Positions 8,436-62,222 of a DNA stretch of 64,000 bases are shown here, in pieces. Numbering within the stretch: position 1 is the first letter of the stretch; the number at the start of each line of letters is the position of its first letter. This DNA is from an uncultured virus (IMG/VR IMGVR_UViG_2061766007_003888) (lineage: Duplodnaviria; Heunggongvirae; Uroviricota; Caudoviricetes). The DNA lies in the IMG/VR virus record IMGVR_UViG_2061766007_003888; one strand, written 5' to 3'. The translations under genes were made by a program, and so were the position numbers. Under the pieces are notes generated by a model. It was not told the DNA's origin, did not search any database, and worked only from the letters and a program-made list of their open reading frames with translations.

Positions 8436-8785
8436 GATATATTTATAACTGGCGAAATAGGCTTGGGTTCGCGATAATCGCCCTTGAAGAACTCGTAAAA
8501 CAGCATACCGCGATAATTTTCATATTCTATGGCGTATACTCCCTGTTCGGCAGTCGGGTATATATGGTGTATCTGCAGCTTGCCCTTGCCGTTTATCGAA
8601 TGGTGGCCGTGCTTACATTCCGGATGGAATATGAGCCTGTGATGTGTCGGGCAGTACGACAATACGACATTGCTGTTGAGCCTGTTGCCGAGTTCACGGG
8701 GTATTATATGATGGTATTCTATCTCGTCACGGTTTTCAGTCTGATAATCGCAGCCGGGCCAGTGACATGTATATTTGAGCTTCAC
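8432..8785 (-). CDS. small HNH endonuclease-like protein
   Basis: CHWPGC...EYHHIIPRELG...N...CPTHH zinc-binding HNH pattern; GTG start. Confidence 0.7.
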   Translation of the reverse strand: MKLKYTCHWPGCDYQTENRDEIEYHHIIPRELGNRLNSNVVLSYCPTHHRLIFHPECKHGHHSINGKGKLQIHHIYPTAEQGVYAIEYENYRGMLFYEFFKGDYREPKPISPVINIS

Positions 8786-10120: not shown

Positions 10121-10220
10121 TTTAAATATTCTCCTATTTTAGTTTTATATTTTATTTATAAAAGTTTTTTCTGACAAATTTTAAGAATATTATAAATAAT
10201 AGAGAAATTTAGGAGAATTT

Positions 10221-11570: not shown

Positions 11571-12594
11571 ATATCAGGAATTCGTCCATCGGGTTTTCCT
11601 CGAGCATCAGGTGCTGCCCGATTTTAATCCATCCGTTAATTCTGTACATCGTCTCGAAAAGCTGGCAGAACGACTTTCTGAACATCGTCTCGTAGTCTAC
11701 CGTGAACATGTTGTTGAATTCGTCGGGCCAGGTTTCCAGGAACGCGACAAAGTTTACCGGTTGAACACCCGGCTTGCCTATTTCCTTGTACTTGAACTCG
11801 TTATTCGGCAGGACATAGATATATTTCATCTTCGTGTTATTGCCGATTGGCGTAAGCTTGAGTCGCTTTTTTGCCAGGATATAATTATATATCAATGCGG
11901 CTTTTGCGCCGAAAATAACGGAAGTGTTCTCGCCCTTGTCGAACTCGAGACCGTTCTTCACGTAATAGTCGATGTCGTTAGGTATATACTTCTTATAGTT
12001 CGTGATACCTATGACTGCGGAAATTTCGTCAATCGGCGTCTTGCAGTATTGTTCGTATACCTTCATTATTTCGCGGTCGCAATAATCCTTTTTCGCGCCT
12101 GCACATATTTCAAATGCGAGCTTTTCTGCAGCTTCCTTACAAAAGTTTGGCATAGTGCTCTTTTTTATGCCTACACCCATAATTTTATGTTTCGGTTTGC
12201 TGAATGGATATGGGTGCCCTTCCTTATCGATAATATTACCTATATAAAGTTTACGGGCAAAACAAAACATATTCTTGAATATGTTTTCGCGATTGAATTT
12301 AATTTTATTCGTCGTATTTGTTTTTTGCGCGCGAATTAATAAAATTTTATTGAAGAAAGTTTGAAATACATGTTCGGCTTTTTTATAAAAGTCACGATAT
12401 TCTTCTTCCGTTTCAATTTTGACACCGGATTCTATTAATTTGCGCTTAAGTTCATTGATAGAAAAATATACGGATATCTAGGAGTCTGTGTCGTTATGTA
12501 CGGCACAGACATCCCTCCCTTTTACTTTAAGCGGTTCATGATTTTTAAATGTAAAATTTTCGTGTTGAATATAATCAACTTTATAAAATTTCAT
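11569..12594 (-). CDS. family-B DNA polymerase, C-terminal half (motif C, thumb), with in-frame TAG at codon 39
   Basis: ATG at 12594: MKFYKVDY...VCAVHNDTDS*ISVYFSINEL...KFNRENIFKNMFCFARKLY...KIMGVGIKKS; one frame throughout, only interruption is TAG at 12480-12478. Confidence 0.85.
12472..12483 (-). other. candidate programmed translational bypass site (TCC-TAG-ATA-TCC)
   Basis: matched Ser codons around a stop; skipping 9 nt restores DTDSVYF. Confidence 0.6.
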
Positions 12595-12601
12595 AATTAT
12601 A

Positions 12602-12609
12602 AAATATAG
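12602..12609 (-). promoter_or_regulatory. CTATATTT promoter-like motif for the polymerase C-half
   Basis: same motif precedes genes at 710, 15923, 23881, 28467, 32617, 42808 and 51049. Confidence 0.5.
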
Positions 12610-12612
12610 TAA

Positions 12613-15923: not shown

Positions 15924-16007
15924 ATCAAAATAACCTAAAATACATATTAAATATAGAAAAATGGCGCGACTTGAAAATCGCGCCAATTTTTATCTAATTT
16001 TTTAATA

Positions 16008-16217
16008 TTAGATATTGAGTGCCTTAACGAACTTGGTAATATCTTCCATAGCCTGGAGATAGCCGGCCTTAAAACTTGCCTTGTCGGCAGGAACGGCCGT
16101 CTTCTTCACTTCGTCGAGACGAGCAGGGATAAACTGCTTGATCGCACGAATTGCGTTGACGAGGATATCTTCAGAGTCGATAGCGTCGTTAAAGTTATTT
16201 CCGTTTTGTGTAACCAT
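16008..16217 (-). CDS. small hypothetical protein
   Basis: 69-aa ORF with AAGGA RBS. Confidence 0.6.
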   Translation of the reverse strand: MVTQNGNNFNDAIDSEDILVNAIRAIKQFIPARLDEVKKTAVPADKASFKAGYLQAMEDITKFVKALNI

Positions 16218-16246
16218 ATGTATTTTTCCTTATTTTAATGTTCAAA

Positions 16247-16477
16247 TCACTTTTTTGTTAACCAAATATTATATATCTTGTTATCTTCCTGACATTTCCT
16301 GATATTATCGGGTATAAGTTTCTGAAATTCTTCCGGTATATCCGACAAATCGGGCGCCTGTTCGTATTGTGACCATGCAGTCTGTTGCGCAATCTGCTGC
16401 GCGACTTCGGGCATGCCTTCCAACGCGTTTTCCCAGTCAATCGGACGATTTTTATCGTGTTTGTACTCTGGAATCAT
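16247..16477 (-). CDS. small hypothetical protein
   Basis: 76-aa ORF overlapping the IF-1 3' end. Confidence 0.5.
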
Positions 16478-19490: not shown

Positions 19491-19758
19491 CTATATACCT
19501 TTCATTATTCAAATTTATTTTGTACACCGCCGGTTGCTTCGGAGTATCTATTTCCGGATCTTCCGTAGGCACTATGGCAGCGCTTTTAAACAATATCTTC
19601 CCGTACTGTATAGCCGCTTCGACCCCGCAATACTTGATAATCTTGTATAGTCTCGGTGACTTATTAAACCGGAAAATACCGTAGTCCTTGTCGCGGGACA
19701 TCAATGTATATATGTTGCCCGCGCTATCCATATATATATGACCGATTTCAAAACTCAT
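19462..19758 (-). CDS. hypothetical protein
   Basis: 98-aa ORF in overlapping operon. Confidence 0.55.
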   Translation of the reverse strand: MSFEIGHIYMDSAGNIYTLMSRDKDYGIFRFNKSPRLYKIIKYCGVEAAIQYGKILFKSAAIVPTEDPEIDTPKQPAVYKINLNNERYIDVYRSHFGC

Positions 19759-19979
19759 ACAAGCTCATTCTTCCTAAGGAATGCGTTAATTTTCTTACTA
19801 AGGTCGTTGTTCTTGGAACTGATAACCTTTCGTTCTTCGTCGTTATATTCGTCATAGTTCTTGATATAGATTTTCGCGTATTCATCAAAATGTTCGAATA
19901 CATCTTCAATCACTGACGCATAGACTGACTTAACTGCATTAAGCGGGCTTACTGTTTTCTGATTCATTGTTATATTCAT
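19755..19979 (-). CDS. hypothetical protein
   Basis: 74-aa ORF, ATGA overlap. Confidence 0.5.
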   Translation of the reverse strand: MNITMNQKTVSPLNAVKSVYASVIEDVFEHFDEYAKIYIKNYDEYNDEERKVISSKNNDLSKKINAFLRKNELV

Positions 19980-20223
19980 ATGCCAGAGTTTCCAGTTTGT
20001 GAACGAATTCAGATTTCTTCTCGAATTCAGGCAACAGCCCGACGACGACCGAAAGCCATTCGCTCAGGGTTTTACATTGTTTAAACTTTTCAGAGATTCC
20101 TGCCGCCTTGTCGATTACATCGCGTAATGCCGCGAATTTCTTCGGGTCGTTCGCGATAGACAATAAATCCCTGTCGGACTTGAATAACGGCGGAATCTTG
20201 AATACCTTGTATTTCTTGGCCAA
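19939..20223 (-). CDS. hypothetical protein
   Basis: 94-aa ORF, TTG start. Confidence 0.5.
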   Translation of the reverse strand: MAKKYKVFKIPPLFKSDRDLLSIANDPKKFAALRDVIDKAAGISEKFKQCKTLSEWLSVVVGLLPEFEKKSEFVHKLETLAYEYNNESENSKPA

Positions 20224-20228
20224 CGGTA

Positions 20229-21577: not shown

Positions 21578-22311
21578 NNNNNNNNNNGCTGAGAACCAGG
21601 TATACTTGAATAAGCTGTGGTTGACCCTGTCTACCGCGAAATATATCTACATGCAGATTAAGGACGTGGGTAAGAAGAACGAATCCGTATTTGACGATTC
21701 GAATTATACCCTGCTTACGGAAAGCATTATTTTCGAAGACTCGGATAACGGTAACCGTAAGAGGCACAGTGTCGAAATGGCGATGAATATCTATAACGAC
21801 AACCTCGCCAAGATTGACTTNNNNNNNNNNTGACCCGCAAGACAAGGACAATAAGGTATACAATACGCTCAAGGACTGCCAGAAACTTATGGACTATATC
21901 GTATACGGGCCGAAGTCAAAGGGACTTGCCGGTGACGACCGCGATATCTACCTGCTCGTCGGCTGTATGATTGGGTTCTGTAAGTCCCTCAAGAAGTTCA
22001 AGGGTGACGATACCGATTACAGGCCGCAGGGCATAAACAAGTCGGATATGACGGACCAGGGAGAACAGACTACCGCGGGTACNNNNNNNNNNAGACGATA
22101 CCGATTACAGGCCGCAGGGTATAAACAAGTCGGATATGACGGACCAGGGAGAACAGACTACCGCGGGTACTGAATCTGAAGCATGTATCCCAAATTATTC
22201 GAAAGACAGTCTGATTAACGANNNNNNNNNNCGAATCTGAAGCATGTATCCCAAATTATTCGAAAGACAGTCTGATTAACGAAATATATAAATATATAAA
22301 AGGATAACAAC

Positions 22312-23811: not shown

Positions 23812-23840
23812 TTTACAAGCGTCAAATAAATTGCTATATT
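23812..23840 (+). promoter_or_regulatory. sigma70-like early promoter
   Basis: TTTACA-17nt-TATATT with extended TG. Confidence 0.65.
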
Positions 23841-23880
23841 GTGGTATACAGTCAAGAGACTGTTATAAAAAGAGGTTAAT

Positions 23881-24174
23881 ATGAATAAGAAGATGAAAGC
23901 CGGTACCTATGTGATGAACAAGAAAACCGGAAAGACATACGTGGTCGCAACCGATACGTTGCAGTCCAAGAACCGCCGTCAGCTTACCGGTCTGGAAATT
24001 CGCCGTCCTGAATCTATTCAGGTTTGTGAATCCAGCCTCCGTATGCTTACCCGTGACGAAGCCAAGCTCTGCATGGAAGCCGAACGTCTCGTTCGTAGCG
24101 GCCACAAGCTTTCTGTCAAGGACAAGGCAATCCTTAAGGCATGGCGTTCTTTCCGTGCCGATATCATGGGATAA
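23881..24174 (+). CDS. basic hypothetical early protein
   Basis: 97-aa ORF, GAGG RBS. Confidence 0.7.
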   Translation: MNKKMKAGTYVMNKKTGKTYVVATDTLQSKNRRQLTGLEIRRPESIQVCESSLRMLTRDEAKLCMEAERLVRSGHKLSVKDKAILKAWRSFRADIMG

Positions 24175-24198
24175 CTGACCGCGGTCACGGCAGGAAAT

Positions 24199-33919: not shown

Positions 33920-34525
33920 CTACAGTTTCCTCAGGTTCAACATGGCTATGCCGGTAAACAGCCCGCCGGCGCAGGCGCCAGTAATCGGCGCGGAAAAAGT
34001 CATCGTGGCAGTCATCGCGTTCTTCAGGAATATCTCGAACTTGTCCCATATCTTGGCCGTCAGATCCGGTGTATCGGGTTCCAGCACCCGCAGCTGTTCG
34101 TAAAGGCTCGCGCCGTACTGTCTGAAATGCGACGTGACGAGCGCGCCCGTACATATACCGGTTACCGTCGGTTCGGCCGTCCACGTAGTGAGCTTGCCAG
34201 TTATCTTCAACCCGATATAGTTGAACAGGTTGGCGAGACCGTTATCCTTGACTGAAACGGCAAGCACGAGCTCCTTGGACTCCAGGCTGAACGGGGCTAT
34301 GACCGGGCGGCATACCATGAGTGGGCTCATCGGCGTGCCGAGCGGGGTAACCGTGCCGGCGGGCGACGTCACAGTACCGTATATGCCGCAGGTGAGTGTC
34401 GAGAAATACTGTCTGAGCCATTCGGTCAGGCCGCGGGCGAGGACGCCGCAAGTATCTGACTGCGCCGACTTCTCGTTCAGCGACGCGAACGCGGGCTGCA
34501 GGTAATACTTGTACAGGGTACCCAT
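33920..34525 (-). CDS. hypothetical protein, possibly baseplate-associated
   Basis: 201-aa ORF coupled to the terminase stop. Confidence 0.55.
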   Translation of the reverse strand: MGTLYKYYLQPAFASLNEKSAQSDTCGVLARGLTEWLRQYFSTLTCGIYGTVTSPAGTVTPLGTPMSPLMVCRPVIAPFSLESKELVLAVSVKDNGLANLFNYIGLKITGKLTTWTAEPTVTGICTGALVTSHFRQYGASLYEQLRVLEPDTPDLTAKIWDKFEIFLKNAMTATMTFSAPITGACAGGLFTGIAMLNLRKL

Positions 34526-35586
34526 TACTTGAAATCCGCCCAGAAATTGTTGTCGTTCAGTTCGTTCATGTCGGCCATCATGTCGACCGTGAGCTCGTCC
34601 TCGGTCTTGACGTTCTCGACATACCGTATGTTGTCCATGTCGATTTCCGGCTGCATCGTCGCGTATACAGCCCAGTAGAGCGCCGACACGGTATCGTCGT
34701 GGTTGCCCTTGGACGCCTTGAACACGTTCGGCGTGTTCTGTTCCTCGAACGTGGATATCTCCTTGATGGTGACGGCGTCGTGGATTTTCAGGAACCCGGC
34801 GTCCATGACACGCTTCAGCTCCATGCAGGCGTCGAGTTTCGATCTCTTGTCCGCCTTCGTACCGAGGCCATGACCGGCCTTCTCGGTATTGATCATGTTC
34901 GTGTTCTCCAGGGTATACCAGAGTTCCTCGGCGACTTGCTTGCCGACATCGTTGTTCTCGAGGATATAGTACGCGTTGTTGTACAGCTTGGAGATATAGT
35001 CGACGATTCTCGAGAACTCGCCTATCTTGACGGTGTTGGACCTGTAGACGGCGACCTGTTCCATGTCATTCTTAGAGCGTATCTCTATGACCTGCACGCA
35101 GGCGTAGTCGTTGCCGACGCCGGAGGCGCAGTCGACTCCCATCACGTAGAGCACGCCGGGTTTAGGCTTCGAGTAGACGTTCAGCGAGAGGTCGTCGAAG
35201 AGTGTCTCTACCGGCTCGGACTCTATGAGTTTTTCTATCGTATCGCCGGAAATGAGCGTCGGGGACGAACCGATGAACGAGCAGTTGTGGTTGATGAGCC
35301 CGTTGACCGTCCCGTAATAAGCGCCATCCACATTCACCGGCGTATATACGGTACGCATGCCGGTTTCCTCGACCGACACGACCGTGCTGGAACCGAGATC
35401 CGTATTCGATACGGCGTCGCCTGGCTTAAGGGAATCTGCCCTGACGCCCGTGCCGTCCGGACGGAGGAACACGTGGTCTGACGAACAATCAGTCTCGGCG
35501 TTGTCGAATACTATGTGAAGGCAGGCGGACAGGCGCTTGGCCATGCCGTCGAATTTTACGAAATGTCCGTCGTTCTTTATGAGCAT
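34525..35586 (-). CDS. terL: terminase large subunit C-terminal (nuclease) half fused to split-intein C-fragment; partial duplicate at 35769-36167
   Basis: HN|CSFIGSSPTLIS, YVMGVDCASGVGNDY, ILENN, GNHDDTVSA; T4 gp17-type nuclease domain, no ATPase domain. Confidence 0.88.
   Translation of the reverse strand: MLIKNDGHFVKFDGMAKRLSACLHIVFDNAETDCSSDHVFLRPDGTGVRADSLKPGDAVSNTDLGSSTVVSVEETGMRTVYTPVNVDGAYYGTVNGLINHNCSFIGSSPTLISGDTIEKLIESEPVETLFDDLSLNVYSKPKPGVLYVMGVDCASGVGNDYACVQVIEIRSKNDMEQVAVYRSNTVKIGEFSRIVDYISKLYNNAYYILENNDVGKQVAEELWYTLENTNMINTEKAGHGLGTKADKRSKLDACMELKRVMDAGFLKIHDAVTIKEISTFEEQNTPNVFKASKGNHDDTVSALYWAVYATMQPEIDMDNIRYVENVKTEDELTVDMMADMNELNDNNFWADFK
35284..35586 (-). mobile_element. 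atypical split intein, long C-fragment (101 aa)
   Basis: starts at Met without block A; CSSDH (block B), VYTPVNV (block F), NGLINHN|C (block G). Confidence 0.8.
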
Positions 35587-35590
35587 GATG

Positions 35591-36847
35591 TTACTGGCTT
35601 ACTAGGTTGTCCGTATGGAATTTCTTGACTTTCGTATATTCCGCGGCGTCCCTGTGCGGGACGATGTCTATGTGCATGTTGTGCGGCTCTATAATCGACG
35701 GGTCGGGAATATAGATCATGTTCCACTTGGCGAGCAGGAACGCTATCGAGTTGCGCCGNNNNNNNNNNGTGACCGGCCTTCTCGGTATTGATCATGTTCG
35801 TGTTCTCCAGGGTATACCATAGTTCCTCGGCGACCTGCTTGCCGACGTCGTTGTTCTCGAGGATATAGTACGCGTTGTTGTACAGCTTGGAGATATAATC
35901 GACGATTCTCGAGAACTCACCGATCTTGACGGTGTTGGACCTGTAGACTGCGACCTGTTCCATGTCGTTCTTGGAGCGTATCTCTATGACCTGCACGCAG
36001 GCGTAGTCGTTGCCGACGCCGGAGGCGCAGTCGACTCCCATCACGTAGAGTACGCCGGGTTTAGGCTTCGAGTAGACGTTCAGCGAGAGATCGTCGAAGA
36101 GTGTCTCTACCGGCTCTGACTCTATGAGTTTTTCTATCGTATCGCCGGAAATGAGCGTCGGGGACGANNNNNNNNNNNNNNNNNNNNNNNNNNNNNNNNN
36201 NNNNNNNNNNNNNNNNNNNNNNNNNNNNNNNNNNNNNNNNNNNNNNNNNNNNNNNNNNNNNNNNNNNNNNNNNNNNNNNNNNNNNNNNNNNNNNNNNNNN
36301 NNNNNNNNNNNNNNNNNNNNNNNNNNNNNNNNNNNNNNNNNNNNNNNNNNNNNNNNNNNNNNNNNNNNNNNNNNNNNNNNNNNNNNNNNNNNNNNNNNNN
36401 NNNNNNNNNNNNNNNNNNNNNNNNNNNNNNNNNNNNNNNNNNNNNNNNNNNNNNNNNNNNNNNNNNNNNNNNNNNNNNNNNNNNNNNNNNNNNNNNAGCG
36501 TCCCTGTGCGGGACGATATCTATGTGCATGTTGTGCGGCTCTATGATCGACGGGTCTGGGATATAGATCATGTTCCACTTGGCGAGCAGGAACGCTATCG
36601 AGTTGCGCCGTTCCAGGTCTTCCATGCTGACGTTGCCGAAACCGTGGTAACCGGTCTTGCTCGTCGCCATGGTGAACAGCTGCTTGAAGTGCGCGAGGTA
36701 GTACACGTCGAACTGCTTGTAGAGATGGCACGACTGGTATATAATCTTCTTCTGCCTGTCGACGATACCGATCCTGGAAAGGGTCTCGGTGATGATGTTC
36801 TCGTTGACCAGCAGCTTCACCTCGAGTAGCCTGTTAGTCGGGAACAT
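35591..36847 (-). CDS. regA: translational repressor RegA (5' part 36497-36847; 3' end 35591-35758)
   Basis: ETLSRIGI...YQSCHL...YYLAHFKQLF...EDLERRNSIAFLL.KW; ends ...KFHTDNLVSQ*. Confidence 0.88.
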
Positions 36848-37317: not shown

Positions 37318-38109
37318 TTACTTGATCTTCGGGAGGAAGAAGGACGGGGAGAGCGGTACGGGCAGTTCCACGGCGCCGCCGCAGTGCGGGCACTCGAAGA
37401 CGGCGACCGGGTTCGAGATGAACATGTAGTCGCCTACGAGGTTCGTGAACTTGCTGAAGGACATGCCGTCGAGCTCGCACACGTACTCGTACGCGGTCAT
37501 GAGGGACACTTCCTTGCCGTTAATCTTGTAGATGTAGCTCGAGAAGTCGAGGAATCCCGGATCGATGTCGATGACGAGCTGCGGGTCGTTCTTGAGCTTC
37601 TCGACGGCCGCCTCGGTGCTGATCGTCGGGAACCTTACGGAAATCTTGTCTCCGTTGATCTCGAAATATTCCGGGAGCTCGTTCTCGTAATAGGTGATGT
37701 TGAGGTCCTTGAGGACGAAGTCGAAACTGCCGATCGTGCCGCATCCCTCGCACTTGCCGCGGAGCTTGTACGGGAGATCGTTGAAGGTATAGGCCCTGAG
37801 GTAGAAGATGAGCCAAAGCTTGTCGGCGACGAGGATCTTGTCAGTGTCTATACCCCACAGGCAGGACTTGATGGTGCTGTTTATGATGAACGTGGAGTTC
37901 TGTTCCGTGATCGTCGCGAGCTTCTTGATGTTCAGCGAAGACAGTTTCTTGACATAAATCTGTTCCGGGTATAGTTTCCCTTTGCTGGGCAGCAAAGACT
38001 TATCCAAGAGGATCGAATTTTTCGGTGGCTGGTTCTCGAACTCGGCGATAATATCCTTCAGGTTGTCCGACTTCGGGGAGTTGTTAACGTCAATTTTTTC
38101 AGATTTCAT
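37318..38109 (-). CDS. second baseplate hub gp26-like paralogue
   Basis: LPSKGKLYP...ILVADKLWLIFYLRAYT...CEGC...VRFPT...CPHC. Confidence 0.65.
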   Translation of the reverse strand: MKSEKIDVNNSPKSDNLKDIIAEFENQPPKNSILLDKSLLPSKGKLYPEQIYVKKLSSLNIKKLATITEQNSTFIINSTIKSCLWGIDTDKILVADKLWLIFYLRAYTFNDLPYKLRGKCEGCGTIGSFDFVLKDLNITYYENELPEYFEINGDKISVRFPTISTEAAVEKLKNDPQLVIDIDPGFLDFSSYIYKINGKEVSLMTAYEYVCELDGMSFSKFTNLVGDYMFISNPVAVFECPHCGGAVELPVPLSPSFFLPKIK

Positions 38110-38174
38110 ATTTTCACCCTGTAGTTTTAACAATATATTTATAAAGCTCGATAGTTAATGAACTTGAATATCTC

Positions 38175-38523
38175 TTTTTGACAATGCGAGCGGGAGAGAT
38201 CAGAGCCTAGACAGGAACATAATCTAGACTTCTCTCGACTTTCCTTTTTGCATAAAGCTTCGCGGTGTCGATCTTACGGGCCTTACGTAACGGCTTACGG
38301 GGCGGTCATCCTGTACTCCGGCTATATCCGATACTGCCATGGCGGCTGTACGTACGGCGTGCCCGCCGTACTTCGCTGGTACTTTCATTAACAGTGATCG
38401 TACGTATACGATATGCCTGCTCATTTCTGGAAAACCCGTACCCGGTTTTCAATGGCTCACCCTCTACCGATAGCGCCATTGGGTTGTGCTTCGTTCCGAG
38501 GAATAAGTCTTCAATGTCGAAAA
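38175..38523 (-). ncRNA. candidate ~350-nt structured non-coding RNA
   Basis: no convincing ORF; end-to-end closing helix, several hairpins, CTATATTT promoter motif immediately upstream. Confidence 0.55.
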
Positions 38524-38572
38524 TCAAATATAGGTAAATAAAAATTTTCGTAAACTTATTTTTGAAAAACTT

Positions 38573-40712
38573 CTAGAAATCTTTCTTTTTCTTGACTTCC
38601 ATGACACGGAACTTGACCTCGCGGGAACGGATCATGTCGTCAGTTATGGCGCTGTACGTGACCGTTGAGCGCTGTCCCTGGCTGATTCCCTCGCTGTCTA
38701 CGGTCACGACGTGGCCGTGTTTCAAGGATTCTGCCGTAAATTTACCCCTGTTTTCTCCAGAAACGCTATCCAGGTCAATCGAAACGACGAGGGTGGTATC
38801 TTTATCGAGTTTTCTGTTCTGGAGCTCCTGGAGGTCCGAAATGGAGTTAATCTGAATATCCAGAATTTTGGCCTGGCCCTTGCCGGTCGCGTTAATCTGG
38901 CGCACCATCTCGTCGGACACGTAGTCCTTACCGGAAGAGACACCGGTAAGCCTCTTGTCCAATTCCAGTTTTTTCGAAAGTTCAGTAGAGGTGTACGCCG
39001 CGCACCAGCCGTTCGATTTCGTATTCCTGAAGGTATTCTGGTCGATTTCCTTGTTCTTGTCGTAGTTTTCAGCGCTGAACGGGTTTCCCGACGACTTATA
39101 CTGCGTAGTCCTGCCGGTATACTTGAGCGATTCCATCTCGTTCTCGAGCTGCATTTTCTGCTTGAGCAGGTGGGCGATGTCGCCGATATTCTCGGTTTCG
39201 AAAACGTTGTTCTGCGTCTCGTTGCGTAATTTCCGGAATTCCGTACCGTCTATGCCGTCGGTCGCGTCGACGCCGAACTTGTACTTGATTATGAGCATGT
39301 CGCGTTCTTCTTCCGTCATGTCGTTGTACATGCGGTTGAATTCCTCGTGAGCCTCGCGTTTCGCGTAGAGGTCCGAAGAGTTGTCGGTATATTCGTTCAC
39401 CCATGCTTTACGGGCTTCGTTTATATATTCCTCACGGTTGAGGTCTATGGACTTCTTGAAACCGGAATATACGAGTTCGTTATTNNNNNNNNNNTCGTAC
39501 CGTCTATGCCGTCGGTCGCATCGACGCCGAACTTGTATTTGATTATGAGCATGTCGCGTTCTTCTTCCGTCATGTCGTTGTACATGCGGTCGAATTCCTC
39601 GTGCGCCTCGCGTTTCGCGTAGAGGTCTGAAGAGTTGTCGGTATATTCGTTCACCCATGCCTTACGGGCCTCGTTTATGTATTCTTCGCGGTTGAGGTCT
39701 ATGGACTTCTTGAAACCGGAATATACGAGTTCGTTATTGGTGTTGTCGATTTCCTCGATTTTCTTCGAAATCTGTTCGCGTTTCGCGTTGANNNNNNNNN
39801 NCGTTGTCGATTTCCTCGATTTTCTTCGAAATCTGTTCGCGTTTCGCGTTGACCTTGTCGTTCTGGGCGAACCATGCGCGTTCCGTCGGCGTAGCGTGTT
39901 CGAATTCCCATTTTTCCGCCGTGTCAATCTCCTTCTTGAAGTTTTTCTCGGAATACGACACGACACGCTCGCGCTTACCCTCGGAGACCTTGAATTCGGA
40001 AATTTCTTGTTCCTCTTCGTAGACGTATTCGATATAGAACGTAGCCGTAAGGTCTACAGGGTGACCGTAGTCGTTGTTGTTGAAAGACGGCGTGTCGTAT
40101 GCTTTCAGGAAGCCTACGTATACCTTGTTGTCGACGATATTCCGCATCGATTCATCAAACTGCGTTATCTCGATATTCAGGAGAGGGTTCTTTCCCGGAT
40201 TGTTGAACGCATACGGCCCGAGCTGGGACACGATGAACTTGTACACGTCCATGTTGTCCGTTTCCTCGAACGTTATAGTCATTTCTGTATCGCTGAACTT
40301 GAATACGGGTACCAGATACTGGGTATTCCCGAAATACTGGCGGTTCGCCATGTCGAGCTTGAAGACCGGTTGAGATATTTTCTTGACCGCGAACGTCAGG
40401 TAGTCCGTCTCGGAACGGTTTCTGTCGTACGGCCAGATNNNNNNNNNNTACGTCCATATTGTCCGTTTCCTCGAACGTTATAGTCATTTCTGTATCGCCG
40501 AACTTGAATACGGGTACTAGATACTGGGTATTCCCGAAATGCTGACGGTTCGCAGTGTCGAGTTTGAAGACCGGTTGGGATATTTTCTTGACAGCGAACG
40601 TCAGGTAGTCCGTCTCGGAACGGTTTCTGTCGTACGGCCAGATTTCGCACTGGAACCTGTACGTCACGTGCGGCTTTATGCTGTATATCTGGTATACGTT
40701 CATTAGCGACAT
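38573..40712 (-). CDS. tail-tube/baseplate-initiator-like N-domain with C-terminal CHAP/NlpC-like domain (fragmented)
   Basis: YRFQC...VKKISQP...MTITFEET (gp19/gp54-like); GWCAAYTS...HGHVV Cys/His pair. Confidence 0.5.
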
Positions 40713-41783: not shown

Positions 41784-41795
41784 TATTTATAAATA
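41784..41795. promoter_or_regulatory. overlapping divergent T4-type late promoters
   Basis: palindrome TATTTATAAATA gives TATAAATA on both strands between divergent genes. Confidence 0.7.
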
Positions 41796-41801
41796 ATAAA
41801 A

Positions 41802-42299
41802 ATGACGGAGAATCCGATGAAACTTGACGAAGCTATAGAAATACTCGAAGATTCCGGGTACGAGGTAATCAACGAAGGGAAGATTACCAGATTTATCGCG
41901 GGGCTGGCGCTTGCCGCCGGTCTCCTGTCCACGGCGCAGGCCAAGGACTTCAACGCGAGGGCGAACTCGAATTACACGAGCAAGGCCACGACTTCTGTTT
42001 TCGCGAAGGATATACAGAAGAGTTACAACATGGGTTCCGATATAAACATCACTGCCAACATGGTCCAGGCGATTGCCGACCAAGCTTCCAAGAAACTGAC
42101 GGACAAGATGGTCGCCATCAACAGTTACGACGAGGAAGACATGTTGAAGCTCGACGAGTTCAAGCAAATTGTCGAATTCTACAAGCAGCTCAAGCAGGCA
42201 GATGAGAGCCTCGCGAATATGTTCTCCCGCAGGCTCGATAAGTCGTTGACGAAGTCGCTGAGCATTGCGCCAAACATACAGAGGTACGCTGAGGCGTAA
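41802..42299 (+). CDS. hypothetical late protein with internal signal-peptide-like segment
   Basis: MKLDEAIEILEDSGYEVINE then GKITRFIAGLALAAGLLSTAQA-KD. Confidence 0.7.
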   Translation: MTENPMKLDEAIEILEDSGYEVINEGKITRFIAGLALAAGLLSTAQAKDFNARANSNYTSKATTSVFAKDIQKSYNMGSDINITANMVQAIADQASKKLTDKMVAINSYDEEDMLKLDEFKQIVEFYKQLKQADESLANMFSRRLDKSLTKSLSIAPNIQRYAEA

Positions 42300-43567: not shown

Positions 43568-43579
43568 AAATATATTTAT

Positions 43580-44776
43580 ATGGCACAGAACCTAACTTAT
43601 ACGATAGACAACGACAATACCAGTTATTGGGCCAGGAAATACGCGCATAATGACGGCGTTTCAACTGTTCCCGAAGGAGACCAGGCGGGTGCTGTCAACG
43701 CCGACCAGTCGCTTGACGATTTTATAAAGTCCGGTTTTTGGGTTACCCCAATGGAATACTACACGAAGGCCTCGACAATAAACTTGGACGGTTATGTAAC
43801 GTATAACGATACGAAGCTTGAATATAAGTATTTCTGGATTGAGGATTTGAAGAACTGGGGAACGTATACGTACGACAGTCTTGGCGACGATTATTCGAAT
43901 AAGTTTTATCTTTGCCTATGGAACGGCCGCGATAACTGGATCCCGTTCAATAGCGATATGAATGTCAATATAGATAAGGATAAGTACGGTATCAGGAATT
44001 TTCAGAATAACTTGATAGCGAAATTGAAAGACGATGATAAAAATATAATTATGCAACAGCGTGGTCATGCGCTCGAACTGAATGCAGCATTGTCAAAACG
44101 CAATGCACCGGTATATGAGCCCAAGGAATCTGAATGGTTGCAGGTAGTACATGCATTCAGGTTGCAGAAAGCTACAAAATATGTCATAAACGATAGTAAT
44201 GATTTCCAAACGATCTCACACCAGACCCAGTATATTAATGTAGAATTTCCGGCAGATGCTGCATCGTTCGCGCAGACTAATTTTAGGGTAGGCGTAGTGT
44301 TAGGTTGTCCATGTATATGGAGGCTTCCTACGGGTGAACTTGCCCTGTGTACGATACTTCAGTGGAATTCTGATTGCGGTATTTCGTATTATTATAAGAA
44401 GATTGATAAATATGGTTTCAAGGCTGTTATGGATCCTTTCGTGACAAAAACTGGTCTTGCGTATAACAAGTTTATGTTGGGTACGGGAGTTGCTGACGTA
44501 ACGTCGTATCTTAATGGTGTCTGTGCGCAGTTTTTCGGTAAGGGGGAAACCAAGACGATTGAGTCAGACTGGCTGAGGGATTACAGGTTCGATATAAGTC
44601 TTGACGAATACAAGATGGCGTCTAAGGACAATTATAAGAGTATGTTGAATTCAGAATTGATGTTCGAACAGCACAATATAAATAAAGAGAATTCGTTAAA
44701 GTGCGGTTTCGAAATTAATCGTCCCGTACTGACTACCACGGAAAAGACGAACAAAGACTATATAAAGAAATGGTAA
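43580..44776 (+). CDS. hypothetical structural protein
   Basis: 398-aa ORF heading a late operon. Confidence 0.65.
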   Translation: MAQNLTYTIDNDNTSYWARKYAHNDGVSTVPEGDQAGAVNADQSLDDFIKSGFWVTPMEYYTKASTINLDGYVTYNDTKLEYKYFWIEDLKNWGTYTYDSLGDDYSNKFYLCLWNGRDNWIPFNSDMNVNIDKDKYGIRNFQNNLIAKLKDDDKNIIMQQRGHALELNAALSKRNAPVYEPKESEWLQVVHAFRLQKATKYVINDSNDFQTISHQTQYINVEFPADAASFAQTNFRVGVVLGCPCIWRLPTGELALCTILQWNSDCGISYYYKKIDKYGFKAVMDPFVTKTGLAYNKFMLGTGVADVTSYLNGVCAQFFGKGETKTIESDWLRDYRFDISLDEYKMASKDNYKSMLNSELMFEQHNINKENSLKCGFEINRPVLTTTEKTNKDYIKKW

Positions 44777-56116: not shown

Positions 56117-56152
56117 CGTTATAAATAATATAAAAATAAGGTTTTTGACTAT

Positions 56153-62107: not shown

Positions 62108-62222
62108 TCAAGACCTTTTCAATTTTTATATTATTTATAATTTTTGCGACTATGCATGTCCGTAAAACGAAAGGCCCCGTATTGATATTATAAATAATGA
62201 AAGAAAATATAGGACAATATAC

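What the first reader, a model, noticed from the sequence alone, without database searches (positions are those of the whole stretch)
38175..38533. Unannotated ~350-nt structured ncRNA candidate with its own promoter
Seen: this is the only long intergenic stretch in a dense genome. On the minus strand CTATATTT (38533-38526) directly precedes TTTTCGACATTG, which can pair with CATTGTCAAAAA at 38186-38175. GACTTATTCCT near the 5' end can pair with AGGAAAGTC near the 3' end. Internal hairpins include CAATGGC/GCCATTG, GAAAACC/GGTTTTC, ATCGTA-TACG-TACGAT (UNCG-type loop), GTACGGCG-GGCA-CGCCGTAC and GAGAGA-AGTCTAGA/TCTAGGCT-TCTCTC, whose G.U pair works only on this strand. CGTAAG occurs three times. 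It does not look like tRNA or tmRNA. Inference: a possibly new large phage RNA class.
Basis: partly seen in the sequence, partly recalled or inferred. Interest (0 to 1): 0.72.

Follow-up and report, generated by a model that had tools for sequence, protein, structure and literature searches.

The report
Enlarged cow-rumen-2 phage RNA gene
The gap before the baseplate-hub gene of this T4-like rumen phage holds a real gene for a folded, knotted RNA of about 355 bases that codes for no protein; its middle third is the catalogued but unexplained 'cow-rumen-2' motif, so it is a larger form of a known RNA whose job is still unknown.

Summary
The 463-nt gap (38110-38572) holds a minus-strand structured RNA of about 356 nt (about 38520-38165). 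It is not a new class. Its centre (38377-38274) matches Rfam RF02947, cow-rumen-2, at 95.6 bits against a cut-off of 66. That model covers only 104 nt.

- **Linked domains.** A conserved 5' domain, a two-hairpin middle domain and a 3' domain go with the core. All 59 viral loci found by a 5'-domain pattern have the core. All 61 real core hits have the 5' domain.
- **Structure.** My 76-pair model, with four pseudoknot or tertiary contacts, is 85.4% paired across 42 distinct relatives, against 68.3% in shuffles (0 of 500 reach it) and 35-44% when slid.
- **Transcription unit.** A Bacteroidota-type promoter box lies upstream. A T4-type late promoter, TATAAATA, separates the RNA from the hub gene.
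- **Copy number.** Complete 411-424 kb phages carry 3-4 copies.
Three of them (the terminal helix, CAATGGC/GCCATTG, GACTTATTCCT/AGGAAAGTC) are not kept in relatives.
- **Function.** It is unknown. Most likely this is a stand-alone RNA acting in trans through its invariant knotted core.

This scan already reported the same enlarged RNA on other DNA at least six times.

The parts
38525..38555 (-). Promoter of the RNA: GTTTAC (38555-38550) and TATATTTG (38532-38525)
   Evidence: The consensus scan finds TTTACG-16-TATATT on the minus strand. Both elements are conserved in register in relatives. TAnnTTTG is the sigma-A -7 box of Bacteroidota, at -12 to -5 (passage of PMC9723704). That places the start near 38520.
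38165..38520 (-). The RNA, about 356 nt. The 5' end is inferred from the promoter; the 3' end is approximate, where conservation ends.
   Evidence: Conservation profile over 78 non-redundant sequences. Model of 91 pairs. Non-coding: the median longest ORF in relatives is 44 aa, and indel lengths are mostly not multiples of 3.
38456..38507 (-). 5' domain (not in Rfam): helices 38506-38503/38457-38460, 38501-38498/38461-38464, 38493-38491/38468-38470
   Evidence: helix 1: all 8 pairs show changes on both sides, and 90.6% of cells are paired. Helix 2 is nearly invariant. This domain always accompanies the core.
38386..38454 (-). Middle domain (not in Rfam): enclosing helix 38454-38451/38386-38389, hairpin 38450-38430, hairpin 38421-38390 with a lineage-specific insert hairpin 38412-38397
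   Evidence: helices 3, 4 and 6 are 93.9%, 93.6% and 96.8% paired, with 3 of 4, 7 of 7 and 3 of 5 pairs changed on both sides. One search gives the mutual-information scores.
38378..38442 (-). Pseudoknot 1: hairpin loop GGUAC (38442-38438) pairs with GUACC (38382-38378)
   Evidence: helix 5: 5 of 5 pairs changed on both sides, 79.9% paired. In one search, pair 38441-38379 shows five pair types.
38274..38377 (-). Core = Rfam cow-rumen-2 (RF02947). It has hairpin 38371-38352, long helix 38338-38328/38279-38293 and inner helix 38320-38316/38298-38301. Its tertiary contacts are 38376-38374/38302-38304, 38341-38339/38307-38309 and 38362-38361/38321-38322.
   Evidence: 95.6 bits, model positions 1-106. 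helices 7-13. The contact 38340-38308 covaries (A-U, U-A, C-G) in core variants found through the 5' domain.
38180..38269 (-). 3' domain (not in Rfam): base helix 38269-38257/38180-38191, stem GAGAGA/UCUCUC 38236-38231/38194-38199, hairpin 38230-38223/38204-38211 with a UCCU-containing loop
   Evidence: Relatives form the hairpin with many different stems, all ending in AUAGGC. The base helix is preferred over the 5'-end pairing. The MAFFT alignment is poor here, so helices 14-15 are only 43-52% paired.
38136..38143 (-). TATAAATA, T4-type late promoter of the hub gene
   Evidence: It occurs 26 times in the window against 5.25 expected, and 0 of 100 shuffles reach that. In 50 of 61 related loci it lies 91-234 nt after the end of the core. 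That TATAAATA is the T4 late-promoter consensus is recalled knowledge.
37318..38109 (-). Downstream gene: baseplate hub protein
   Evidence: PF12322 at E 1.5e-9. phrog_150 baseplate hub.
38573..39658 (-). Upstream gene: 361-aa protein of no known family
   Evidence: No Pfam or PHROG match. The upstream gene differs among related loci.

Best explanation
This is an independent gene for a folded non-coding RNA of about 356 nt, carried by a T4-like phage of the ruminant gut. A host-type promoter (TATATTTG box) starts it near 38520. It folds into four parts in series.
- A 5' domain.
- A two-hairpin middle domain, tied to the linker by a pseudoknot.
- The cow-rumen-2 core, whose hairpin loop is pinned by two nested pseudoknots and a loop contact.
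- A closed 3' domain that carries a conserved UCCU/AUAGGC hairpin.

The gene, its limits, its strand and most helices are shown. The mode of action is inferred. The RNA most likely acts in trans as a folded molecule. Its invariant, multiply knotted core would form a specific binding surface or pocket for a protein or small ligand of the phage or host, while the outer domains brace that core. It does not seem to act by long antisense pairing or as a leader of the next gene.
For: - **Known core.** RF02947 scores 95.6 bits against a gathering score of 66.
- **Larger unit.** All 59 viral loci found by a 5'-domain pattern have the core downstream on the same strand. All 61 real core hits have the 5' domain.
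- **Structure.** My 76-pair model is 85.4% paired on 42 distinct sequences, against 68.3% in shuffles (0 of 500 reach it) and 35-44% when slid. 57 pairs change on both sides.
- **Strand.** The Rfam hit and the promoter are on the minus strand. Many G-U pairs would be A-C on the other strand.
- **Not coding**.
- **Own transcription unit.**
  - The promoter is conserved in register.
  - A late promoter lies between the RNA and the next gene in 50 of 61 loci.
  - In the L024 group the RNA lies between a divergent uvsY-like gene and a convergent gene, with a two-way terminator hairpin, so no leader role is possible there.
- **No fixed neighbour.**
  - Neighbours include hub, tail tube, uvsY, a CCA-adding enzyme and an SbcC-like gene.
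  - Of 9 hub relatives, only the near-identical one has the RNA upstream.
- **Copy number.** Three complete or near-complete (98-100%) genomes of 411-424 kb hold 4, 4 and 3 copies.
- **Phage-specific.** Only 3 of 120 pattern hits in cellular genome collections are real, and all three lie in MAG bins.
- **RNA libraries.** Short contigs (103-387 nt) from sheep and bovine RNA libraries of two studies match the conserved 5' domain and core of relatives. This is a weak hint only.
Against: - No experiment or transcript end is available.
- The RNA-library evidence consists of contigs of relatives. One contig includes the promoter box, so DNA carry-over or read-through cannot be excluded.
- Folding energy is not better than that of shuffles.
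- No partner protein or ligand is identified, and no gene co-occurs next to the RNA.
- AGCCGCCA and ACAGGATGACC are invariant partly by construction, because two of my three collection scans required them. Only the 59 loci are free of this bias.
- The 3' domain is heterogeneous and poorly aligned (helices 14-15). The 3' end is not defined in the window, where no terminator is found.
- Most copies are co-oriented with a late structural gene, which keeps a cis role possible.
Confidence: 0.6

Rival explanations
1. The RNA is a ribozyme or a self-assembling 'ornate' RNA. On this reading, the knotted invariant core is a catalytic centre (self-cleavage or another reaction), or the RNA builds homo-oligomers as ROOL and GOLLD do.
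For: Several nested pseudoknots surround invariant unpaired bases. Peripheral domains vary while the core stays fixed. The RNA is phage-borne and present in several copies, like other large RNAs of unknown function. ROOL is described as a cage-forming RNA from cow rumen in a passage of PMC13622246. The GC/GC loop contact is self-complementary, so it could equally form between two molecules.
Against: No known ribozyme family matches. The only ribozyme hit is the Hairpin ribozyme at E 3.7, 15.8 bits against 65. Nothing matches in 14 homologous loci. No cleavage site or reaction can be named. The contigs laid cannot show RNA ends.
Confidence: 0.17
2. The RNA is a cis-acting element of the downstream late gene. 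It would be a long structured leader or insulator that blocks, processes or stabilises early read-through transcripts entering late structural genes.
For: In 50 of 61 loci the RNA is followed within 91-234 nt of the core by TATAAATA and a co-oriented gene: hub in 22, a tail-tube-like gene in 10, a 156-162-aa gene in 14. No terminator is found in the window.
Against: The L024 group (8 of the 61 loci; one paralogue lineage) has no co-oriented downstream gene and has its own terminator. Other lineages have strong terminators after the RNA. The downstream gene has its own promoter. The invariant knotted core is far more elaborate than a block or processing site needs. Hub genes of related phages do without it.
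Confidence: 0.1
3. The RNA marks a replication origin. The early transcript would stay hybridised as an R-loop and prime leading-strand synthesis, as at T4 oriF and oriG. Its 3' end might also load the sliding clamp next to the late promoter.
For: [quoted passage not shown] Here there are 3-4 copies per large genome and a host-type promoter. One paralogue lies beside uvsY. In the 415-kb genome, the copies at 113 kb and 359 kb lie at switches of gene strand and GC skew. The RNA's 3' end abuts a late promoter in 50 of 61 loci.
Against: The other two copies (51 kb, 273 kb) do not lie at a switch. T4 origins need no conserved RNA fold, whereas this fold is kept by compensatory changes, including tertiary contacts. 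Eleven of 61 loci lack the late promoter. GC skew follows gene strand, so it cannot tell origins apart here.
Confidence: 0.05

Closest known systems
cow-rumen-2 RNA motif (Rfam RF02947, 106 positions, typed 'Gene; sRNA')
   Same: Window 38377-38274 is a full-length match at 95.6 bits. All 14 homologous loci tested also pass the cut-off. The family's helices covary in my alignment (helices 7-13). No function is recorded. In the paper library it is named only in the Rfam 15 paper, in a table of R-scape improvements.
   Different: The Rfam model covers about 29% of the conserved RNA. A 5' domain, a middle domain, a 3' domain and a pseudoknot to the linker are always attached. No Rfam model covers them. 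I recall that the motif came from Weinberg et al. 2017. Its main text does not name the motif, and the supplement could not be read. I therefore cannot say what its authors noted about flanks or phage origin.
ROOL and GOLLD RNAs (large ornate RNAs of phages and prophages)
   Same: They are large, complex-folded, multi-pseudoknot RNAs of unknown biochemical role, found in phage DNA. ROOL was first found in cow rumen data (passage of PMC5737381).
   Different: There is no sequence or model match. This RNA is shorter: about 356 nt against an average of 581 nt for ROOL. No tRNA genes lie in this window. Whether it forms oligomers is untested.
T4 origin transcripts (oriF/oriG R-loop RNAs; oriE early-promoter dependence)
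   Same: Several loci per T4-type genome, a promoter read without phage factors, and one copy beside uvsY.
   Different: T4 origin RNAs have no conserved fold. Only 2 of 4 copies in a complete genome lie at strand or skew switches.

Membership tests
cow-rumen-2 (RF02947) | Covariance-model score at or above the curated gathering score, over the whole model | tested here: met
   95.6 bits against 66, model positions 1-106, E 5.2e-17
cow-rumen-2 (RF02947) | The family's helices are kept by compensatory changes in relatives | tested here: met
   helices 8 and 11-13: 20 of 22 pairs change on both sides. Helices 11-13 are 97-100% paired; helix 8 is 73% paired because of register slips.
cow-rumen-2 (RF02947) | The family model describes the whole conserved RNA | tested here: not met
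   Conserved, covarying domains extend from about 38520 to about 38165. No Rfam model covers them.
Group I intron (RF00028) | Model match; interrupts a gene | tested here: not met
   No match at E up to 10 in 37900-38800. The element is intergenic and has its own promoter.
Bacterial RNase P RNA | Model match; long-range P4-type helix between the 5' region and the 3' GGCU element | tested here: not met
   No match. The candidate pairing 38511-38507/38203-38207 is canonical in only 43-71 of 75-78 sequences per pair, with no compensation.
tRNA / tmRNA | Detected by ARAGORN | tested here: not met
   0 genes in the window
Cis-regulatory leader or riboswitch | Always directly upstream of a co-oriented gene, in one transcription unit | tested here: not met
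   A late promoter intervenes in 50 of 61 loci. The L024 group has its own terminator and a convergent neighbour.
T4-type R-loop origin | Promoter plus unwinding element; position at strand or skew switches; RNA-DNA hybrid | tested here: inconclusive
   2 of 4 copies in the 415-kb genome lie at switches. A hybrid cannot be tested here.

The most novel reading that the evidence does not exclude
The enlarged cow-rumen-2 RNA is an origin and enhancer RNA of giant T4-like phages. It would be made early by the host polymerase and fold so that its 3' part stays hybridised to the DNA. This would give a primer-template junction that primes leading-strand synthesis and loads the sliding clamp just upstream of a late promoter. 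Replication and late transcription would thus be coupled at 3-4 fixed places per genome.
Probability: 0.05. Interest if true: 0.85.

Novelty: new variant of a known kind. Interest (0 to 1): 0.55.

Why it matters
The catalogue lists cow-rumen-2 as a 106-nt small RNA with no context. These data show it is the core of a multiply knotted RNA of about 300-390 nt, carried by T4-like phages of the ruminant gut. The RNA has its own promoter, and complete genomes of more than 400 kb hold up to four diverged copies. Large RNAs with this many tertiary contacts and invariant unpaired bases are rare, and those studied so far have turned out to be ribozymes, RNP cores or self-assembling cages. Correct limits and a correct fold are the precondition for structure work, for binding or cleavage assays, and for an improved Rfam model. 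The regular position just upstream of late promoters of baseplate and tail genes is a new, testable lead.

Tried and rejected
- **Folding energy.** z = -0.82 and -1.73, so it is not informative.
- **GenBank phages.** blastn found no match. No whole genome is held for the window.
- **Weinberg 2017.** The supplement could not be read, so what its authors wrote about this motif is unknown to me.
- **mafft-qinsi.** Not installed, so I used L-INS-i.
- **RNase-P-like P4 pairing (5' AAGNC with GGCUN) and AGCC/GGCU pairing.** No compensation, and many mismatches.
- **Group I resemblance.** A resemblance of part of the core to a group I element, recalled from memory, was not pursued. The Rfam group I model gives no match.
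- **Antisense targets of the invariant core loop in the window.** 16 matches with up to 2 mismatches against 11.25 expected, and 11 of 100 shuffles reach that. This is not enriched.
- **Second copy in the window.** None found by domain profiles.
- **Metagenome scan.** 92 of 121 pattern hits were chance.
- **Genome scan.** 117 of 120 hits were chance.
- **Reads.**
  - The four runs laid were contigs only.
  - They cover 38278-38383 and 38451-38514, plus one 35-nt piece at 37898-37932. X1 also covers 38302-38465.
  - The lack of cover on the flanking genes and on the variable parts says nothing, because these are relatives at 85-95% likeness.
- **Origin idea.** GC skew and gene strand in the 415-kb genome are inconclusive.
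- **Terminators.** The conserved 3' hairpin plus UUAUUGU looks terminator-like in 12 of the 76 non-redundant sequences scanned (20 of 76 carry any terminator-like hit). It does not in the window, and conservation continues beyond it.
- **RNAalifold on the 3' sub-family alignment.** It gave no structure, because the alignment is too poor.
- **Earlier notes.** Look-ups by sequence, by place and by further words gave nothing more.

Full report
**What is there.** The finding lies in the 463-nt gap between the stop of ORF 38573-39658(-) and the ATG at 38109 of ORF 37318-38109(-).
- The upstream ORF encodes a 361-aa protein with no Pfam or PHROG match.
- The downstream ORF is a baseplate hub protein (PF12322 at E 1.5e-9; phrog_150).
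- Nearby genes include a regA-type translational repressor, terminase pieces and a T4 neck protein.
- TATAAATA, which I recall as the T4 late-promoter consensus, occurs 26 times in the window against 5.25 expected (0 of 100 shuffles reach that).
- The window is therefore part of a T4-like phage. No whole genome is held for it, and GenBank phages hold nothing similar to the gap.

**Checking the observation.**
- The gap is long, but it is not the only gene-poor stretch in the window.
- Folding energy does not stand out: z = -0.82 on the minus strand and -1.73 on the plus strand.
- The decisive first result is Rfam. At gathering thresholds the whole 64-kb window has one match, cow-rumen-2 (RF02947), at 38274-38377 on the minus strand. 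It scores 95.6 bits against 66 and covers model positions 1-106.
- A permissive search of 37900-38800 adds only chance-level hits, at E 2.9-5.8 and far below their cut-offs.
- The centre of the candidate is therefore a catalogued family.
- In the paper library that family is named only in the Rfam 15 paper, in a table of R-scape improvements.
- The main text of Weinberg et al. 2017, which I recall as its source, does not name it. Its supplement could not be read.

**The RNA is much larger than the family model.**
- A scan of IMG/VR for two invariant core words gave 63 loci, of which 61 are real.
- Their alignment shows conservation from a promoter upstream, through about 150 nt 5' of the Rfam match, to about 110 nt 3' of it.
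- A second scan used only 5'-domain words and gave 59 loci. All 59 have the core downstream on the same strand at a constant distance. Conversely, all 61 real core hits have the 5' domain.
- In the metagenome collection 29 of 121 pattern hits are real.
- In 120 hits from cellular genomes only 3 are real, and all three lie in MAG bins.
- Rfam finds only RF02947 in 14 diverse homologous loci.

**The region does not code.** In 78 non-redundant sequences the longest ATG ORF has a median of 44 aa and lies on either strand. Indel runs are mostly not multiples of three: 880 and 338 against 253.

**Structure.**
- RNAalifold on 46 sequences gave 44 pairs, of which 32 show compensatory changes.
- A structure-blind mutual-information scan over 78 sequences recovered the Rfam helices. 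It also found new long-range pairs.
- I wrote a 76-pair model and counted it on the MAFFT alignment.
  - 85.4% of cells are paired, against 68.3% in shuffles (0 of 500 reach it) and 35-44% when partners are slid by 1-3 columns.
  - 57 pairs change on both sides.
- Elements outside Rfam that are supported:
  - the 5'-domain helix: 8 of 8 pairs compensated;
  - an enclosing helix, 38454-38451/38386-38389;
  - hairpin 38450-38430: 7 of 7 pairs compensated;
  - hairpin 38421-38390;
  - a pseudoknot between the loop of the first hairpin (38442-38438) and 38382-38378: 5 of 5 pairs compensated.
- Contacts inside the core:
  - 38376-38374 with 38302-38304;
  - 38362-38361 with 38321-38322;
  - 38341-38339 with 38307-38309. 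This last one is invariant in the pattern-selected set. It covaries (A-U, U-A, C-G) in the core variants found through the 5' domain.
- The 3' domain aligns badly (helices 14-15).
  - Folding each sequence on its own shows the same hairpin, with many different stems ending in AUAGGC and a loop holding UCCU.
  - In the window's sub-family the 3' segment CGCAUUGUC pairs with an internal segment rather than with the 5' end. The energies in the window are -13.2 against -6.3 kcal/mol, and the internal partner is better in 9 of 10 comparable relatives.
- The resulting window model has 356 nt and 91 pairs.
The other hairpins stand.

**Transcription unit.**
- GTTTAC (38555-38550) and TATATTTG (38532-38525) are conserved in register.
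- TAnnTTTG is the sigma-A -7 box of Bacteroidota, at -12 to -5 (passage of PMC9723704). The start is therefore near 38520, and the host is probably a member of that phylum. This is an inference.
- Downstream, TATAAATA at 38143-38136 precedes the hub ATG.
- In 50 of 61 related loci TATAAATA lies 91-234 nt after the end of the core.
- The co-oriented gene that follows is a hub gene in 22 loci, a tail-tube-like gene in 10, and a 156-162-aa gene of unknown family in 14.
- In the L024 group the RNA lies between a divergent uvsY-like gene and a convergent gene, with a two-way terminator hairpin. Other lineages have strong terminators after the RNA.
- Upstream genes vary: a uvsY-like gene, a CCA-adding enzyme, an SbcC-like nuclease, a head-tail adaptor.
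- Of 9 relatives of the hub protein, only the near-identical one has the RNA upstream.
- The RNA is therefore a free-standing cassette with several old paralogous positions. Three complete or near-complete (98-100%) genomes of 411-424 kb hold 4, 4 and 3 copies above the Rfam cut-off. The window holds one.

**Expression.**
- One search for sequencing runs found RNA libraries with small shares of the words.
- Four were laid. All are kept as contigs.
- Short contigs (103-387 nt) from sheep and bovine metatranscriptomes of two studies match the conserved 5' domain and core at 85-95% likeness, so they come from relatives.
- One 387-nt contig spans both parts but also includes the promoter box.
- This is a weak hint that such RNAs are present in RNA preparations. 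It is not proof of a discrete transcript.

**How it most likely works.**
- Shown: an independent, conserved, non-coding, multiply knotted RNA gene with a host-type promoter.
- Inferred: it acts in trans as a folded molecule whose invariant core is a binding surface or pocket.
- I tested three more specific ideas.
  - An RNase-P-like long-range helix has no support.
  - Antisense targets of the core loop are not enriched in the window.
  - The origin reading is inconclusive, for the following reasons.
    - T4 has several origins. oriF lies at uvsY, oriE depends on an early promoter, and R-loop RNAs act as primers (passages of PMC3016281).
    - In the complete 415-kb genome the copies at 113 kb and 359 kb lie at switches of gene strand and GC skew.
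    - The copies at 51 kb and 273 kb do not lie at a switch.
- A ribozyme or a self-assembling RNA remains possible and untested.

**Earlier work of this scan.** The same enlarged cow-rumen-2 RNA was reported before on other DNA, in e1-5482295, e1-5892729, e1-5854587, e1-5797485, e1-5642370 and, in a longer diverged form, e1-5759366. I reached the same reading from my own calls before seeing them. Here I add:
- the strict linkage counts;
- the covariation of the third core contact;
- the rejection of three proposed pairings;
- the free-standing L024 context;
- the regular late-promoter adjacency.

**Verdict.** This is a real feature, a new and larger variant of a known family, with function unknown. 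Interest is moderate to high for RNA biologists, lowered because the core is catalogued and the scan has seen it repeatedly.

Noticed in passing
window 34525-36847 (-): Two adjacent ORFs both match the terminase nuclease domain PF17289. ORF 35577-36731 matches profile positions 1-78 only, and ORF 34525-35586 matches 1-152. The first ORF overlaps a regA-like gene (36134-36847). The large terminase gene may be split, interrupted or partly duplicated.
   Followed up: no
window, whole: TATAAATA occurs 26 times against 5.25 expected. Many copies sit just upstream of ORF starts, for example 8440-8447, 10153-10160, 10191-10198, 22287-22294, 43573-43580, 56120-56127 and 62189-62196. This fits T4-type late promoters.
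   Followed up: partly
window 42300 (-): The only other match in the window to the RNA's promoter pattern (TTTAC, 16-22 nt, TAnnTTTG) lies upstream of ORF 41787-42167(-) and the neck-protein gene.
   Followed up: no
window 15987-16368, 12340-12612, 23830-24198, 19569-20228: These are other stretches without an ORF of 90-100 aa or more. No Rfam family reaches its cut-off there, and no tRNA is found.
   Followed up: no
L289, L315 (genome contigs): Two goat-gut MAGs labelled Methanobrevibacter hold contigs of 173-191 kb with full-length copies of this RNA. The genome behind L289 holds three copies. These are probably giant-phage contigs placed in the wrong bin.
   Followed up: partly
L001-L063, upstream of the hub-adjacent copies: Among phages that keep the RNA before the hub gene, the gene upstream of the RNA ends in quite different sequences. 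It looks like a variable gene beside a conserved RNA.
   Followed up: no
window 38398, 38391 against L014: The few differences from the closest relative fall in helices and keep pairing: G-U becomes G-C at 38420/38391, and U-A becomes U-G at 38411/38398.
   Followed up: partly
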